Positions 7,846 to 60,658 of a stretch of DNA of 64,000 bases are shown piece by piece. The notes below the pieces were generated by a model, which was not told the origin of the DNA, did no database searches, and saw nothing but the letters and a program-made list of their open reading frames with translations. The stretch is from Minisyncoccota bacterium (lineage in GTDB: Bacteria; Patescibacteriota; Minisyncoccia; 2-02-FULL-40-12; IGHO2-01-FULL-4-A): NCBI GenBank assembly GCA_036517175.1, contig DATDXQ010000028.1, forward strand, positions 2,113 through 66,112, read 5' to 3'. Within the stretch, counting starts at the first letter, position 1. The number at the start of each line of letters is the position of its first letter. The position numbers were made by a program, and so were the translations under genes.

Positions 7846-8427
7846 TTAAGACAACTGGTCCATCCTCCCGTCCTGGATATCACTTGCAGCGTTACGATGG
7901 GACGGATGTATTTCATCACTAGCAGAAACCTCTTGCAACGTCATCCACTCCGGCTTAAAAATATCATCATCTGACCGAACACGAGCAACCTCTTCCAACG
8001 TCAGTGTTGTCACCACCGTAACACCGTTCATGTGGCAACCCCTATCCTGTGGCGGCTGTTCACGCAATGACCAAAGCCAAGAATCTGACCTTACAAACCG
8101 AAACCTTGCTGGATCAACATTAAGCCCGGTGTTTTTCAGTGTGTGGCGCGCTGCTGTGTCTCCATAGCTTTCACCTGGAATTTGCCTGCCCCCAGGAAAA
8201 GCCCAACCATTTTTATAGGGCTCATTATGTCTTCGCGCCATCAATATCTTCCCGTCTGGAGATATAAGTGCCGCATCAACACAGTTAACGACAATGTTGT
8301 CCAGAATGATTGTATATTCTTCGTCGGTAACCCGCCGCGCGTTTTTGCGAAGCTTACTAACTGTTTCCAGGTTTCCCGCACTGAGCGCTTTCCCATCTAT
8401 AAAGTATCTCTTATTTGTTTGAGTCAT
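7846..8427 (-). CDS. NUDIX hydrolase, GDP-mannose mannosyl hydrolase-like.
   Basis: Nudix box GWAFPGGRQIPGESYGDTAARHTLKNTGL. Directly adjacent to gmd. Confidence 0.65.
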   Translation of the reverse strand: MTQTNKRYFIDGKALSAGNLETVSKLRKNARRVTDEEYTIILDNIVVNCVDAALISPDGKILMARRHNEPYKNGWAFPGGRQIPGESYGDTAARHTLKNTGLNVDPARFRFVRSDSWLWSLREQPPQDRGCHMNGVTVVTTLTLEEVARVRSDDDIFKPEWMTLQEVSASDEIHPSHRNAASDIQDGRMDQLS

Positions 8428-52318: not shown

Positions 52319-52449
52319 TGTCTAACTACTATTTTAAAGAATAAACCAACAATACCATAGAAATATTGTATTGTAAAGTACATTGCTGAGCTGGGACTTA
52401 GTTGGAAATCGATATTATTGAATATCCAAGAGATTTACGCTTTCGCAAA

Positions 52450-52485
52450 TTAAAAAGCCGAGCATAACTCGGTCCTACATTTTAT
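52450..52485 (-). terminator. Rho-independent terminator.
   Basis: gccgagc-ataa-ctcggtc hairpin. Minus-strand T-run with a conserved TTTTTAATTTGCGAA tail. Confidence 0.5.
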
Positions 52486-52793: not shown

Positions 52794-53870
52794 TTACTTT
52801 TTATTGTTCTGCAAAGGGTGGGATTTATTCTTCTCTACCCTTTCTATCATAAATTTTACAGCCTCGTTCGTATTGATAAATTGTAGCTTTATATCTGGAA
52901 GGTTGTTGTGAAATACCCTAAATATTTCATCCGCAAAAGCTTGTCCAATCATAGGAACCTTATCAAAATCAAATACGACAGATTTAAATTTATCTAAACC
53001 AGACAATACTCTACGTGCTTGGGAGCGAGAAACAAATACACCACCTATTGTATACAGCTTTATCTTAACTTCAGTTTTATCAAATCCTTGATAACCGTCC
53101 TCATTTTCTCCAGTATATTTTCTAAATATATCGTTTAGGTGCCTATCTGAATCTATCGAAATAGAAAAACTAACTTTAGTACCCTTTCTTATAGCTTTTG
53201 GTTTTTGTAAGAAAACATCATTAATTCTGTTGTTTACTATAACTAGTCTGTATCCAAAACTATCTAAATTAAACAGGTCGCCAGCCCTTGAAGTAAAGAA
53301 AATACCCTCACCAGAATGAGATTTAGGTTGTGTGGTTGTTTTTCCTTTCAATAAATCCTGAATGGCCTCGAGCTCCGATTTAAGAGTTCTTTTGACCATT
53401 ATGTTTTTATATACTCCAATTCCAGAATCTATTACATCAAAGAAAAGCTTCTTATTTTCAATTCTGACCTCGACCGTAATATTCTTTGATTTTGAATGCT
53501 CAATAGCATTGTTGAGCATCTCAGAAAAAGCATAAGTAAAAATACTCCTAACATTTTCCTTGAGGGTCAAGATAAGGGGAAACTTATTCTCTAGTTCATT
53601 CAAAACCTTGTGCTCTTCCAGCCCCTTATTCTTTAACGTTTTTTTTATTTTGTTAGGAAAAAGTTCTAAGTGGTTCGCAGCGTATTTAGGATTTAGATAT
53701 GAAGCCTTACTAGTTGAGCCGGTCTTTACTATTTTTCTCTCATTGACCAACTGTTTTAATAAAAAGCTTATATATTGCCTAGAAACGCCAAATATAGAGA
53801 CTAGATCCCTAGTTTTTAATTGTTTTTTTTGCTCTAAAATATTTAGTATTGTTTCTTTAGACAACTTCAT
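52794..53870 (-). CDS. Single-polypeptide wHTH + GHKL (HATPase_c) ATPase + STAS-like (DUF4325) protein.
   Basis: N-terminal HTH (LKTRDLVSIFGVSRQYISFLL). N-box NNAIEHS and G-box DSGIGV. C-terminal VVFDFDKVPMIGQAFADEIFRV, typical of DUF4325. Tandem TTGACA boxes with TATACT 7 nt from the ATG suggest a leaderless start. Confidence 0.6.
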   Translation of the reverse strand: MKLSKETILNILEQKKQLKTRDLVSIFGVSRQYISFLLKQLVNERKIVKTGSTSKASYLNPKYAANHLELFPNKIKKTLKNKGLEEHKVLNELENKFPLILTLKENVRSIFTYAFSEMLNNAIEHSKSKNITVEVRIENKKLFFDVIDSGIGVYKNIMVKRTLKSELEAIQDLLKGKTTTQPKSHSGEGIFFTSRAGDLFNLDSFGYRLVIVNNRINDVFLQKPKAIRKGTKVSFSISIDSDRHLNDIFRKYTGENEDGYQGFDKTEVKIKLYTIGGVFVSRSQARRVLSGLDKFKSVVFDFDKVPMIGQAFADEIFRVFHNNLPDIKLQFINTNEAVKFMIERVEKNKSHPLQNNKK

Positions 53871-54133
53871 TGACTTAAGTATATCAGTTGTAAAGCGGTT
53901 GTCAAGTAGTCTGGGGACGGTTGTCAACTTGGTTGTAAAGTTAGTGGCCGAGCTAGGTCTTCGTTGCTTCGCTCCTCCGAAGCTTTAGCAAAGGAGGGGG
54001 CATTTATTGATACCGAATATCCGGGAGATTTACTATTTTGCTACAAATTAAAAAGCGCCCTTCGATAAACTCAGAGCACTTCTTAATCTCAGTTTACACT
54101 GAGCTTGTCGAAGTGTTGCGGGGACAATCAATC

Positions 54134-54219
54134 GTTGGAACTACTTCTAAGCGATTAGTTGAGAAAGTTTTTAGGTATTACTTAAAAATAAAACCTATCG
54201 ATTAAGATAGGTGTTGGAA
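54134..54219 (-). repeat. Conserved 3'-end element copy A (GATTAGTTGA box plus terminator hairpin), flanked by GTTGGAA.
   Basis: Homologous to 54741-54840 and 58916-59030. Hairpin cctatc/gatagg. Confidence 0.55.
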
Positions 54220-54740: not shown

Positions 54741-54840
54741 CTCACTACTTGATCAGGGCAAGACTGCAAGCGATTAGTTGAAAGGGTGTTTAAATATTAC
54801 TTAGAAAATAAAAAAGAGGGATAAATCCCTCATCTTGGAA
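54741..54840 (-). repeat. Conserved 3'-end element copy B.
   Basis: GATTAGTTGA box at 54772-54781 plus hairpin gaggga/tccctc overlapping the RidA stop codon. Confidence 0.55.
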
Positions 54841-55811: not shown

Positions 55812-55846
55812 TCTCTTCCTCCGATAATTTCAATGAACCTGGAAAC

Positions 55847-55875
55847 AAAATACACCTTATTGGTGTATTTTGCAA
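55847..55875 (-). promoter_or_regulatory. Promoter TTGCAA-N17-TATTTT with an embedded operator palindrome AAAATACACC-N5-GGTGTATTTT.
   Basis: Perfect 10-bp inverted repeat spanning the spacer. A near-identical copy sits at 57824-57852. Confidence 0.55.
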
Positions 55876-57793: not shown

Positions 57794-57823
57794 ACACTTC
57801 TCCTTGTTAATTTAGCTGAAAAC

Positions 57824-57852
57824 AAAATACACCAATAAGGTGTATTTTGCAA
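57824..57852 (-). promoter_or_regulatory. Promoter TTGCAA-N17-TATTTT with operator palindrome AAAATACACC-N5-GGTGTATTTT (copy 2).
   Basis: Same palindrome arms as 55847-55871. The loop is AATAA rather than TTATT. Confidence 0.55.
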
Positions 57853-57949
57853 CTTATGCCAATCTTGTCTCATTTGTTGCGGAACTCTTACGCAGTTGAC
57901 ACCTTTTGATACCGAATATACAAAAGATTTGCAATTTTGCTCTGGTATA

Positions 57950-58146
57950 AAAAGTGAACCCCCGGGTCGTGGCCACGACATCGGGGGTTAATGTGCACGG
58001 ATTGTTTACCGTGCTGCCTGTTTTCGACCTTGCGGTCGGGCGACCTCCAATAGGGTTTGGGGAGCCTAGGCTCCTTATCCGCCTGTGGCGGACCTACCTT
58101 CGAACCCTCCTCTCGAGAAGCTACCTCAAGAGAAACTCAATGTTGT
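57950..58146 (-). ncRNA. Standalone roughly 200-nt GC-rich structured RNA with its own promoter and terminator. Class not identified.
   Basis: TTGACT-N17-TATACT promoter at 58153-58181. GC-rich terminator hairpin at 57957-57989 plus T5. No ORF. Much more GC-rich than the surrounding sequence. Confidence 0.55.
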
Positions 58147-58346
58147 GAATTAAGTATAGCATATCCTAAGTATAAAGTCAATAGCAACCAAAAACAGCCC
58201 TTGAAAGCTGTTTTTGCAAAGTGCCAAATGGGTCTGGGACCTGGAAATTTGTTGCAGAATTAGGACTTCGTTGGTATTTAATATTACCGGGTATCAAAGA
58301 AATTTATCAGTTTAATCTTGTAAATTAAAAGTCCGCAAAGCGGACA

Positions 58347-58529
58347 TTAGATAGATTTGGGAATTTTACCTTTACCATTGCAGGTCGGGCAGGTTGTAGT
58401 TCTGGTTTCTGGCATTGGAAAACCAAATAATCCTATATATGCAGCGTTCATGATTGTTTCTGTCTTTGAGCCAGACCCGCTGCAATTCCAGCAGATCTGC
58501 TCTTTATTTTGATCTTTGTTGGTTGCCAC
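58347..58529 (-). CDS. Small zinc-ribbon protein.
   Basis: 61 aa. CWNC...CPTC. ATG with a GGGGGTGA SD. TTGACA-N17-TATTGT promoter at 58568-58596. Confidence 0.5.
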   Translation of the reverse strand: MATNKDQNKEQICWNCSGSGSKTETIMNAAYIGLFGFPMPETRTTTCPTCNGKGKIPKSI

Positions 58530-58698
58530 CATACTATCACCCCCTATCTGTGTTAAGGAACAATAAAACAATACGCCATTTCTGGCGTATTGTCAATATT
58601 TGCACTTCGGCCTGTTGGCCTCAGTACAAAATTACCTTCGTAATTTATTTTTGTACCCTTCGGCTGTTGCCTACGGGCACTGCGTCGCCTTCGCTCCT

Positions 58699-58718
58699 TG
58701 TTGCGGGGGCAGGATTTG
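58699..58718 (-). repeat. 20-nt direct repeat of the tRNA-fMet 3' end (att-like).
   Basis: TGTTGCGGGGGCAGGATTTG is identical to 60584-60603 inside or adjacent to the tRNA gene. Confidence 0.6.
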
Positions 58719-58915
58719 GTTTCGCCTCTCGTTGGCTTCCGCCTCCTCGGGCTAACCACCACCTCGCGTGACTTTATGCCAATTGCATAAAGTCACATGC
58801 TCCGGCGTTCAAATACTGACGAAAGTGACACGGGTCACTTCCTCTCCCCGCAAACATATACGATAAATATAAACGGCTCACATGGTGAGCCGTTTATATT
58901 TTGGGGCAATCAAAT

Positions 58916-59030
58916 GTTGGAACCCTTCGACTACGCTCAGGACAGGCTTGTAAAAGATTAGTTGAGAATATATTTAGATATTATTTGGAGAATAAAAACG
59001 GCATTTAGCCGTATATATTTGTTGGTGAAG
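58916..59030 (-). repeat. Conserved 3'-end element copy C.
   Basis: GATTAGTTGA box at 58956-58965. Hairpin cggc/gccg at the stop codon of the 59005 gene. GTTGGAA / GTTGGTGAA flanks. Confidence 0.5.
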
Positions 59031-60402: not shown

Positions 60403-60585
60403 AACTAAAAAACGCCCCATGAGGCGTTTTTTAGTGTGCCTGTCTTCAGCTTTGGAAATCCTTAGCTGAACGGGGCTTGCGCCCACAAGCACGATGTAAA
60501 TGTAGCATACTTTAGTTAAAAAAAGCAAGTCCTGTTGATAATTCTATGAAAAACAGGAGATTTCTCTCCTGTTTCTCCTGCTCTG

Positions 60586-60658
60586 TTGCGGGGGCAGGAT
60601 TTGAACCTGCGATCTTTGGGTTATGAGCCCAACGAGATGACCACTTCTCCACCCCGCG
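60586..60658 (-). tRNA. Initiator tRNA-fMet (anticodon CAT).
   Basis: Cloverleaf folded by hand. C1:A72 mismatch. D-stem GAGA/TCTC with A11:U24. Three G-C pairs at the base of the anticodon stem (GGG/CCC). T-loop GGTTCAAATCC. Terminator hairpin at 60548-60580. Confidence 0.8.

What the first reader, a model, noticed from the sequence alone, without database searches (positions are those of the whole stretch)
57950..58181. Standalone roughly 200-nt GC-rich RNA gene with a TTGACT-N17-TATACT promoter and a strong intrinsic terminator
No ORF is present. GC content is far above the surroundings. There are multiple internal helices (for example GGUCCGCC-ACAG-GGCGGA) and a GC-clamped terminator (CCCCCG...CGGGGG plus U5). 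Local resemblances to SRP-RNA helix 8 (AGGUCCG...GGA.AAGGAGCC) and to an RNase P segment (CACGGUAAAC) exist, but I could not make either fit. So it is either a divergent housekeeping RNA (SRP or 6S) or a novel sRNA. It is embedded in the accessory region and preceded by the conserved upstream module.
Basis: partly seen in the sequence, partly recalled or inferred. Interest (0 to 1): 0.65.

Follow-up and report, generated by a model that had tools for sequence, protein, structure and literature searches.

The report
Uncatalogued structured small RNA gene
This is a real gene of about 200 bases for a folded non-coding RNA, with its own strong promoter and terminator, that recurs in at least four uncultured groundwater bacteria of the candidate phyla radiation, matches no catalogued RNA family, and has an unknown job.

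Summary
A TTGACT-N17-TGnTATACT promoter (58181..58153) is followed by a GC-rich RNA (56% GC against 40% for the window). The RNA ends in a GC-clamped hairpin plus a U tract (57989..57949).

I found three further distinct homologues: L013/L035, L014 and L058, at 78-87% identity. Only the transcription unit is conserved. Each has a near-consensus extended -10 promoter and its own terminator of different sequence. The flanking genes are unrelated, and the downstream gene is convergent in all three.

Five hairpins are supported. On the four sequences, 97% of pair cells form standard pairs. Eight pairs carry compensatory double changes (0 of 500 shuffles reach this). One hairpin loop stays GNRA while its sequence changes.

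A 2-nt indel breaks every reading frame, so the region is not coding.

Rfam 15 gives nothing for SRP, 6S, RNase P or tmRNA, even at E<=10 on 211-nt slices. NCBI's annotation of the source genome (a Candidatus Paceibacterota MAG) has no gene here.

Verdict: a new family of independently transcribed structured sRNA. The SRP/6S/RNase P readings are rejected. Function is unknown. My best guess, by inference only, is a trans-acting RNA that works through its fold by binding a protein.

The parts
58153..58181 (-). Sigma-70-type promoter: -35 TTGACT (58181..58176), 17-nt spacer ending in TGC (extended -10), -10 TATACT (58158..58153).
   Evidence: 10 of 12 matches, TG present. The same architecture, TTGAC(A/T)-N16-18-TGnTATA(A/C)T, occurs at the same distance from P1 in L013, L014 and L058.
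57949..58146 (-). Predicted RNA, about 198 nt. The start is inferred 6-7 nt after the -10; the 3' end is the U tract.
   Evidence: The ends are predicted, not measured. The conserved core is 58140..57990 (CM R1, 176 bits).
58108..58134 (-). P1 hairpin, 11 bp (UUCUCUUGAGG / UCUCGAGAGGA) with a 5-nt variable loop.
   Evidence: 100% of cells paired; 2 pairs with compensatory double changes (U-A to G-C, A-U to G-C). Conserved U-G wobbles fit only this strand.
58045..58104 (-). Long arm: UUC/GAG (58104..58102 with 58047..58045) and GGUAGG/CCUAYU (58098..58093 with 58054..58049). It closes a three-way junction that carries P2 and P3. It includes the conserved GGGUU(C/U)GAAGGUAGGU stretch, which is invariant apart from one C-to-U change in L058.
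   Evidence: all cells pair, but changes are on one side only (G-U/G-C, C-G/U-G). The arm is consistent with the data but not proven.
58078..58092 (-). P2 hairpin (UCCGCC-ACA-GGCGGA).
   Evidence: 3 of 6 pairs have compensatory double changes (C-G to U-A twice, G-C to C-G). The loop varies in sequence and length.
58061..58074 (-). P3 hairpin, GGAGC-loop-GCUCC. The loop is CUAG here, UUCG in L013 and L014, and CUCG in L058.
   Evidence: The stem is almost invariant, with one G-U and one C.A. This hairpin contains the 'AAGGAGCC' string that was read as SRP-like.
58025..58038 (-). P4 hairpin, CGACC-GNRA-GGUCG. It may be extended by G-C/U-G/C-G (58044..58042 with 58018..58016).
   Evidence: the stem is invariant and the loop is GCAA / GUGA / GGAA / GCAA, always GNRA; the extension has one compensatory change (G-C to A-U in L058) and one mismatch (L013).
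57995..58014 (-). P5 hairpin, GCACGG-UAAACAAU-CCGUGC. The loop start UAAACA is conserved.
   Evidence: 2 of 6 pairs have compensatory double changes (C-G to U-A, A-U to G-C); one A.C mismatch in L058.
57949..57989 (-). Intrinsic terminator: composite GC-clamped hairpin (57989..57957) plus CACUUUUU.
   Evidence: Every homologue has a GC-rich hairpin (3' tails fold at -17 to -27 kcal/mol) and a U tract at the same place, with unrelated stem sequences.

Best explanation
This is an independently transcribed gene for a structured non-coding RNA of about 185-200 nt. It belongs to a family not yet in Rfam, found so far in uncultured groundwater bacteria labelled as candidate phyla radiation (Paceibacterota, Saccharibacteria).

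Shown:
- A near-consensus extended -10 promoter and an intrinsic terminator bracket the unit.
- The core is about 150 nt and folds into five hairpins: P1, P2 and P3 on a common arm, P4 with a GNRA loop, and P5 with a conserved UAAACA loop.
- The hairpins are linked by highly conserved purine-rich and A-rich junctions.
- The unit is conserved as a block while its genomic neighbourhood is not.

Inferred:
- It acts in trans, because there are no conserved neighbours and the downstream gene is convergent in three of four loci.
- It is abundant, judging from the strength of the promoter.
- It works through its folded shape, most likely as the RNA partner or scaffold of a protein, rather than as a simple antisense regulator. 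Nearly the whole molecule is helical or invariant, stability tetraloops are maintained, and no single accessible seed stands out.

The partner and the process are unknown. The confidence given (0.55) is for the whole statement: about 0.9 that this is a genuine structured non-coding RNA gene of an uncatalogued family, and about 0.4 that it works by protein binding.
For: - Promoter and terminator present in the window and in all four homologues, with diverged spacer and terminator sequences.
- Homologues were found independently: by a DNA pattern (L013, L014; L035) and through a spurious antisense ORF (P0008 leading to L058). CM scores are 155-178 bits.
- Similarity is confined to the transcription unit.
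- Structure: 97% of pair cells form standard pairs. Eight pairs have compensatory double changes and 0 of 500 shuffles reach that. Slid controls give 33-55% paired.
- The P4 loop stays GNRA while its sequence changes.
- G-U pairs fit only the minus strand.
- Not coding: a 2-nt indel and no clear codon-position bias.
- No Rfam family matches.
- No gene was called here by NCBI: locus tags VJH71_03425 and _03430 are consecutive.
- Neighbours are unrelated across loci.
Against: - There are only four distinct sequences at 78-87% identity. P3, P4 and the long-range helices rest on invariant or one-sided changes. With so few related sequences, the shuffle statistics overstate significance.
- No expression data exist, so the transcript ends are predicted.
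- The mechanism (protein binding) is inferred from general features. No partner is identified and there is no co-occurrence analysis.
- Distribution is unknown. One pattern scan of 185,579 species genomes found only one species, although that pattern would miss L058-type variants. This sparse recovery argues against a universal housekeeping role.
- In this window the gene lies beside an att-type tRNA repeat, so a mobile-element cargo function cannot be excluded.
Confidence: 0.55

Rival explanations
1. It is a divergent copy of a universal housekeeping RNA (SRP 4.5S, 6S, RNase P or tmRNA) that standard models fail to recognise in candidate phyla radiation bacteria.
For: It has a strong constitutive-type promoter, a suitable size and high GC. 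There are short string resemblances: GGUAGGUCC...GGA.AAGGAGCC to SRP helix 8, and CACGGUAAAC and GAGGAGGGUUC to RNase P conserved regions. These come from my own reading and are leads only.
Against: No SRP, 6S, RNase P or tmRNA model scores at E<=10 on 211-nt slices of three homologues or in the window. ARAGORN finds no tmRNA. The SRP-like string is split between P2 and an independent hairpin, P3. The 5' and 3' ends do not pair, so there is no 6S-type rod. The RNase P-like strings are in the wrong order, and the 150-nt core is too small. The pattern scan of 185,579 species found one species only.
Confidence: 0.04
2. It is a base-pairing regulatory sRNA that targets mRNAs through one of its conserved unpaired stretches, for example the P5 loop UAAACAAU, the junction GAAAACAGGCAG, or CCCCAAA.
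For: It is a standalone gene with promoter and terminator and no conserved neighbours. Several unpaired stretches are invariant.
Against: Most of the 150-nt core is helical and conserved, which exceeds what a seed-plus-terminator sRNA needs. GNRA and UNCG loops and a three-way junction point to a defined three-dimensional fold. As far as I know (not tested here), Hfq or ProQ-type chaperones are not generally reported in these bacteria. No target was identified.
Confidence: 0.2
3. It is cargo of a mobile or integrative element (for example an anti-defence, defence or maintenance RNA) and spreads horizontally. That would explain its patchy occurrence and its high identity between differently labelled hosts.
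For: In the window it lies in a variable region next to the initiator tRNA-Met gene. It sits about 550 nt from a 20-nt direct repeat of that tRNA's 3' end. The neighbours are orphan small ORFs. Identity is 78-87% between MAGs labelled Paceibacterota and Saccharibacteria, with entirely different flanks. Recovery in the genome scan was sparse.
Against: No integrase, reverse transcriptase, TnpB/IscB, Cas or defence protein lies next to it in any of the four loci. In L013, L014 and L058 the neighbours include housekeeping genes (EF-P, DnaJ, M29 peptidase, NUDIX, SNase). The RNA lies outside the repeat-bounded segment. There were no hits in viral contigs, phage records or plasmid records.
Confidence: 0.15
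4. It is a cis-acting leader or riboswitch that controls the downstream 75-aa gene through the terminator.
For: The order promoter, structured RNA, terminator, gene on the same strand is present in the window.
Against: 155 nt separate the terminator from the start codon. That gap holds the gene's own repeated promoter-region module (D1), shared with two other genes. Homologues of the 75-aa gene lack the RNA (L011, L012). In L013, L014 and L058 the gene after the terminator is convergent. No riboswitch family matches.
Confidence: 0.02
5. The conserved sequence encodes a small protein on the plus strand (64-aa ORF 57954..58148), and the hairpins are incidental.
For: An antisense frame is open in all the sequences: 64, 69 and 58 aa in the window, L013 and L014, and read as the N-terminus of the 294-aa P0008 in L058.
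Against: A 2-nt indel in L014 changes the frame in the middle of the conserved block. Substitutions are 17/11/21 by codon position, with 8 synonymous against 23 non-synonymous codon columns. Compensatory base-pair changes occur. Promoter and terminator face the other way. Gene callers did not call it in the ENA or NCBI records.
Confidence: 0.02

Closest known systems
Orphan structured bacterial ncRNAs such as the raiA motif RNA (Rfam RF03072) and similar 'GC-rich intergenic region' discoveries
   Same: A standalone gene of about 200 nt with its own promoter and intrinsic terminator. It has multiple conserved hairpins with invariant junction nucleotides, is much more GC-rich than its genome, has no conserved gene neighbour, and has no known function. 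This comparison rests on my knowledge of that literature.
   Different: No sequence or structure match to raiA or any other Rfam family. The host group is different (candidate phyla radiation). Only four members are known so far.
6S RNA (Rfam RF00013 and relatives)
   Same: Similar size, strong promoter, terminator, trans-acting, and expected to be abundant. A protein-sequestering mode of action is one way this RNA could work.
   Different: 6S is one long irregular hairpin with a large central bubble, closed by pairing of the 5' and 3' ends. This RNA is a string of local hairpins with covariation support (P1, P2, P5), and its ends do not pair. No 6S model hit.
Bacterial SRP RNA (4.5S; Rfam RF00169, RF01854)
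   Same: The local strings GGUAGGUCC and GGA.AAGGAGCC resemble the two strands of helix 8. One hairpin carries a GNRA loop.
   Different: The two strings belong to different hairpins (P2, P3). The GNRA loop caps a plain 5-bp stem (P4) without the symmetric and asymmetric internal loops. No SRP model hit at E<=10.
Bacterial RNase P RNA (Rfam RF00010, RF00011, RF02357)
   Same: The short strings CACGGUAAAC, CCAAA and GAGGAGGGUUC recall conserved regions of RNase P RNA. This is my recollection of the E. coli and B. subtilis sequences.
   Different: The strings are in the wrong order. No P4 pseudoknot partner is evident. The core is less than half the size. No RNase P model hit.

Membership tests
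Bacterial SRP RNA (4.5S / ffs) | Scores against the Rfam SRP covariance models (small, large and Bacteroidales types). | tested here: not met
   No SRP hit at gathering score in the window. None at E<=10 on 211-nt slices of the window, L013 and L014.
Bacterial SRP RNA (4.5S / ffs) | Helix 8: one hairpin with a GNRA loop closed by a short stem, then conserved symmetric and asymmetric internal loops formed by the two SRP-like strands. | tested here: not met
   The SRP-like strands fall in separate hairpins, P2 (triloop or pentaloop, variable) and P3 (UUCG or CUAG loop). The only GNRA loop caps P4, a plain 5-bp stem.
6S RNA | A single extended hairpin with a closing stem formed by the 5' and 3' ends and a large central bubble. 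| tested here: not met
   The consensus folds give five local hairpins with covariation. No pairing of the 5' end with the region before the terminator. No Rfam 6S hit.
RNase P RNA | Conserved regions CR-I and CR-V forming the P4 pseudoknot, in the canonical order, and detection by the Rfam RNase P models. | tested here: not met
   No RNase P family hit at E<=10. The resemblances are short strings in non-canonical order (reading).
tmRNA / tRNA | A tRNA-like acceptor and T-arm (and a tag reading frame for tmRNA), detectable by ARAGORN or Rfam. | tested here: not met
   ARAGORN finds only tRNA-Met at 60585..60658. The GGGUUCGAA string is not closed into a T-arm.
Riboswitch / cis-regulatory leader | Located in the 5' UTR of the regulated gene, in conserved association with a gene family. 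| tested here: not met
   The downstream gene is convergent in L013, L014 and L058. Homologues of the 75-aa gene lack the RNA.
Standalone structured ncRNA gene (generic kind) | Own promoter and terminator conserved with the RNA. | tested here: met
   all four loci have TTGAC(A/T)-N16-18-TGnTATA(A/C)T and a GC hairpin plus U tract.
Standalone structured ncRNA gene (generic kind) | Secondary structure maintained by compensatory substitutions. | tested here: met
   8 pairs with double changes in P1, P2, P5 and the P4 extension; 97% of cells paired; 0 of 500 shuffles. Caveat: only four sequences.
Standalone structured ncRNA gene (generic kind) | Not protein-coding. | tested here: met
   A 2-nt indel shifts both open frames. 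No clear codon-position bias.
Standalone structured ncRNA gene (generic kind) | Expressed as a discrete stable transcript. | not testable with these tools
   No RNA-seq or metatranscriptome data are accessible here.

The most novel reading that the evidence does not exclude
The RNA is the core of a previously unrecognised ribonucleoprotein, or is itself a catalytic or structural RNA, that is widespread in candidate phyla radiation bacteria. It would carry out a basic cellular function in these reduced genomes. My strict 21-nt search pattern would then have missed most members. The string GGGUU(C/U)GAAGG contains a T-loop-like motif, and motifs of that type dock the tRNA elbow in RNase P, T-boxes and the ribosome. 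A tRNA-handling role is therefore one concrete possibility.
Probability: 0.1. Interest if true: 0.85.

Novelty: new member of a known kind. Interest (0 to 1): 0.5.

Why it matters
Candidate phyla radiation bacteria have very small genomes, mostly cannot be cultured, and have almost no described regulatory or structural RNAs beyond the universal ones. This RNA has a near-consensus promoter, is conserved, and folds elaborately, yet belongs to no catalogued family. It is therefore a concrete new handle on their biology.

It can be searched for, mapped in groundwater metatranscriptomes, and used as bait for a protein partner. If it proves widespread it would join the short list of large orphan bacterial RNAs whose functions are open questions. 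If it is confined to a few lineages or to mobile DNA, it is one more orphan sRNA family.

Tried and rejected
1. Rfam at gathering score on the whole window, and at E<=10 on four slices: only terminator-type noise.
2. blastn against phage and plasmid records: no match.
3. Synteny route. Same-species contigs carrying the 75-aa gene are 99.7-100% identical over the RNA region, so they are uninformative. Divergent homologues of that gene (L011, L012) lack the RNA. The Zn-ribbon ORF has only one homologue cluster, in the same species.
4. The first genome scan used the anchor AAGGAGCC and found nothing, because the last C is not conserved.
5. The second genome scan gave 41 hits. 40 were chance or coding matches rejected by the covariance model, including L048, a Patescibacteria coding region.
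6. Six viral-contig scans: only chance hits, including a family of near-identical phage sequences that share the two anchors.
7. A chimeric six-frame 'protein' query meant to catch spurious ORFs over homologues: the candidate list saturated at 8000 and nothing scored. The single antisense ORF searched with HMMER did work.
8. Helices considered and dropped:
   - 5' GUUUUC with GAAAAC, which conflicts with P1 and P4 and is broken in L058.
   - AGGGUU with AACCCU, which is broken in L013 and L014.
   - GGG with the terminator CCC, an RNAalifold artefact.
9. K-turn, sarcin-ricin and SRP Alu-domain readings of the arm: the sequence requirements are not met (reading).
10. ARAGORN with introns on the upstream GC-rich region: no credible tRNA.
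11. Literature searches for sequence strings and for ncRNAs in these phyla: nothing relevant.

Full report
**1. What is at the coordinates**

Read on the minus strand, 58181..57949 is a complete transcription unit.
- The promoter is TTGACT, a 17-nt spacer ending in TGC, then TATACT (58181..58153; 10 of 12 matches plus the TG of an extended -10).
- About 17 nt later a GC-rich stretch begins. It is 56% GC; the window is 39.8%.
- The unit ends in a composite GC-clamped hairpin (57989..57957) followed by CACUUUUU.
- The single-sequence fold is -84 kcal/mol, z = -5.2.

**2. Known families**

cmscan against Rfam 15 finds only tRNA-Met (60585..60658, minus) at gathering score in the whole window. With permissive thresholds (E<=10) on slices around the RNA it finds only weak terminator-hairpin matches. 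ARAGORN finds no tmRNA. Phage and plasmid collections have no similar DNA.

**3. Source organism**

Exact protein look-ups place the window in an NCBI third-party-annotated MAG named Candidatus Paceibacterota bacterium.
- The proteins are HEY4507176 to HEY4507181, on an 80,992-bp contig.
- The 75-aa gene is VJH71_03425, the small Zn-ribbon gene is _03430, and the 155-aa gene is _03435.
- These tags are consecutive, assuming PGAP's usual step of five per gene. NCBI's pipeline therefore annotated nothing at this RNA.
- Metagenome contigs of the same species are 99.7-100% identical over the RNA region and add no information.

**4. Finding relatives**

The synteny route failed.
- Divergent homologues of the downstream 75-aa gene (84% and 64% identity) sit on contigs without the RNA.
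- The Zn-ribbon ORF is an orphan.

DNA pattern scans were more useful.
- A two-anchor DNA pattern in the metagenome collection returned two contigs, L013 (Hainich groundwater) and L014.
- In both, blastn similarity to a 7-kb stretch of the window is confined to the RNA unit, at 78% and 84% identity.
- A second scan of 185,579 species genomes gave 41 hits, about what chance predicts. A covariance model built from the three sequences (R1) accepted only one. That is L035, an uncultured Candidatus Saccharibacteria MAG of the same species as L013.

A fourth distinct member came from a trick.
- The antisense strand of the RNA happens to be open, so I searched the window's 64-aa antisense ORF with HMMER against 1.84 billion proteins.
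- One hit, P0008, is a 294-aa SNase-domain protein whose N-terminus is a mis-called extension running over an RNA homologue.
- Its contig, L058, carries the RNA at 155 bits.
- Viral contigs gave only chance matches.

**5. The conserved block is the transcription unit**

In all four loci the alignment starts a few bases before the -35 hexamer and ends at the terminator.
- All four have TTGAC(A/T), a 16-18-nt spacer of unrelated sequence ending in TGn, and TATA(A/C)T.
- P1 starts 14-17 nt after the -10.
- After P5 there is a GC-rich hairpin (3' tails fold at -17 to -27 kcal/mol) with a U tract. Its stem sequence differs in every locus.
- Predicted lengths are 185-201 nt.

The flanking genes are unrelated.
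- Window: orphan small ORFs.
- L013: DnaJ C-terminal domain, a cupredoxin-like protein and EF-P.
- L014: M29 peptidase, NTPase, NUDIX, HAD hydrolase and a methyltransferase.
- L058: SNase and acylphosphatase.

In L013, L014 and L058 the gene after the terminator is convergent. That rules out a leader or riboswitch and points to action in trans.

**6. Structure**

RNAalifold and explicit pair counts on the four-sequence alignment A4 support five hairpins.
- P1 has 11 bp, with two pairs showing compensatory double changes.
- P2 has three such pairs out of six.
- P5 has two.
- P3 has a nearly invariant stem whose loop is CUAG, UUCG, UUCG or CUCG.
- P4 has an invariant stem whose loop is GCAA, GUGA, GGAA or GCAA, always GNRA.

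Overall, 97% of pair cells form standard pairs and eight pairs carry double changes. None of 500 column shuffles reaches this. Sliding the 3' partners by 1-3 columns drops pairing to 33-55%. Several conserved G-U pairs would be A-C mismatches on the other strand, which fixes the transcribed strand.

The long-range part is less certain.
- An arm (UUC/GAG and GGUAGG/CCUAYU) that closes a three-way junction with P2 and P3 is fully compatible with the data, but it varies on one side only.
- A 3-bp extension under P4 has one compensatory change (G-C to A-U in L058) and one mismatch in L013. It competes with another pairing of the same bases.
- Highly conserved stretches that are unpaired or lie in the unproven arm are GGGUU(C/U)GAAGGUAGGU, AUAAGG, CCCCAA, GAAAACA, and the P5 loop UAAACA.

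With only four related sequences these statistics are indicative, not proof.

**7. Not coding**

The 64-aa plus-strand ORF and an open sense frame exist. However, L014 has a 2-nt insertion inside the conserved block that shifts both frames. In the stop-free antisense frame, substitutions fall 17/11/21 by codon position, with 8 synonymous against 23 non-synonymous codon columns. Gene callers did not call an ORF here in the ENA or NCBI records.

**8.

- **SRP.** The helix-8-like strings lie in two different hairpins. AAGGAGC is the 5' strand of P3. No SRP model scores.
- **6S.** The fold is a row of local hairpins, and the ends do not pair.
- **RNase P.** There are only short strings, in the wrong order.

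All three were tested and not met. The 'conserved upstream module' is repeat D1. It lies after the terminator, in front of the 75-aa gene, and its other two copies also sit in front of genes. It is therefore a promoter-region module of the neighbouring genes, not of this RNA.

**9. What it most likely does**

Shown: it is a conserved, structured, non-coding, self-contained transcription unit with a near-consensus promoter, and it is not tied to any neighbouring gene.

Inferred: it is an abundant trans-acting RNA whose function depends on its fold. I judge a protein-binding or RNP role most likely (roughly 0.4).
- Almost the whole core is either helical or invariant.
- Stabilising GNRA and UNCG loops are maintained.
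- No single accessible seed stands out.

A base-pairing sRNA (0.2) and cargo of a mobile element (0.15) remain open. The second gains some weight from two observations. The local context is an att-type repeat of the tRNA 3' end about 550 nt away. The RNA also shows high identity between MAGs labelled as different classes, yet recovery in the genome scan was sparse. Against it, no integrase, reverse transcriptase or nuclease lies next to the RNA in any locus, and three loci include housekeeping genes.

**10. Novelty and score**

It is a new family within a familiar kind of thing, a standalone structured bacterial ncRNA of unknown function. It occurs in a group of organisms where hardly any such RNAs are described. 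That is moderately interesting. It would become highly interesting only if a wider search shows it to be widespread in the candidate phyla radiation, or if a partner or activity is found. I found no description of it in the searchable literature.

Noticed in passing
window 58570..58870 (minus strand): A second GC-rich, ORF-free, very strongly folding region lies upstream of the small Zn-ribbon gene (MFE -133 kcal/mol, z = -10). It has no Rfam match and no gene in the NCBI annotation. It contains several CGAAGG-type loops. It ends in a hairpin (58594..58567) that is at once terminator-like and a TTGACA-N17-TATTGT promoter-like site. It has no similarity to the RNA studied, and none was seen in L013 or L014.
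   Followed up: partly
window 60584..60603 and 58699..58718 (both minus strand): A 20-nt direct repeat, CAAATCCTGCCCCCGCAACA. One copy is the T-loop-to-3'-end of the initiator-type tRNA-Met (C1xA72). The other lies inside the upstream GC-rich region. This is a classic att-type duplication. It bounds a segment of about 1.87 kb with three orphan ORFs (152, 99/100 and 155 aa) and no integrase. The bases GCGGGGAGAGGAAGUG about 140 nt before the second copy also resemble the tRNA's 5' end.
   Followed up: partly
window 58768..58796: A perfect 12-bp inverted repeat, GTGACTTTATGC-AATTG-GCATAAAGTCAC, lies within the repeat-bounded end of the putative integrated segment. It could be a protein-binding or recombination site rather than an RNA helix.
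   Followed up: no
window 52412..52460, 54007..54055, 57906..57954 (D1); 54149..54193, 54768..54812, 58952..58996 (D2); 55832..55875, 57809..57852 (D4): Three families of short repeated modules lie between the small genes of the 51-60 kb variable region. D1 lies in front of three genes, with the conserved part ..ATATTCGGTATCAA. D4 is a 27-nt palindrome, CAAAATACACC..GGTGTATTTTG. A D2-like sequence is also present in the related contig L012. This suggests shared regulatory or cassette-boundary elements.
   Followed up: no
L011 95..368 (complement): A related organism has an initiator-type tRNA-Met(CAU) interrupted by a 201-nt intron in the anticodon loop, next to a homologue of the 75-aa gene (ARAGORN). 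It is probably a group I intron, but that was not tested.
   Followed up: partly
window 58347..58532 (minus strand): A 61-aa ORF with two CXXCXGXG motifs has weak matches to the DnaJ zinc-finger and anti-TRAP models. It is an orphan, with only one homologue cluster among 5.8 billion, from the same species.
   Followed up: partly
window 52794..53927 (minus strand): A 358-377-aa protein combines a histidine-kinase-like ATPase domain with a C-terminal DUF4325 (STAS-like) domain and an N-terminal winged-helix-like stretch. It lies in the same variable region and might be a defence- or regulation-type gene.
   Followed up: no
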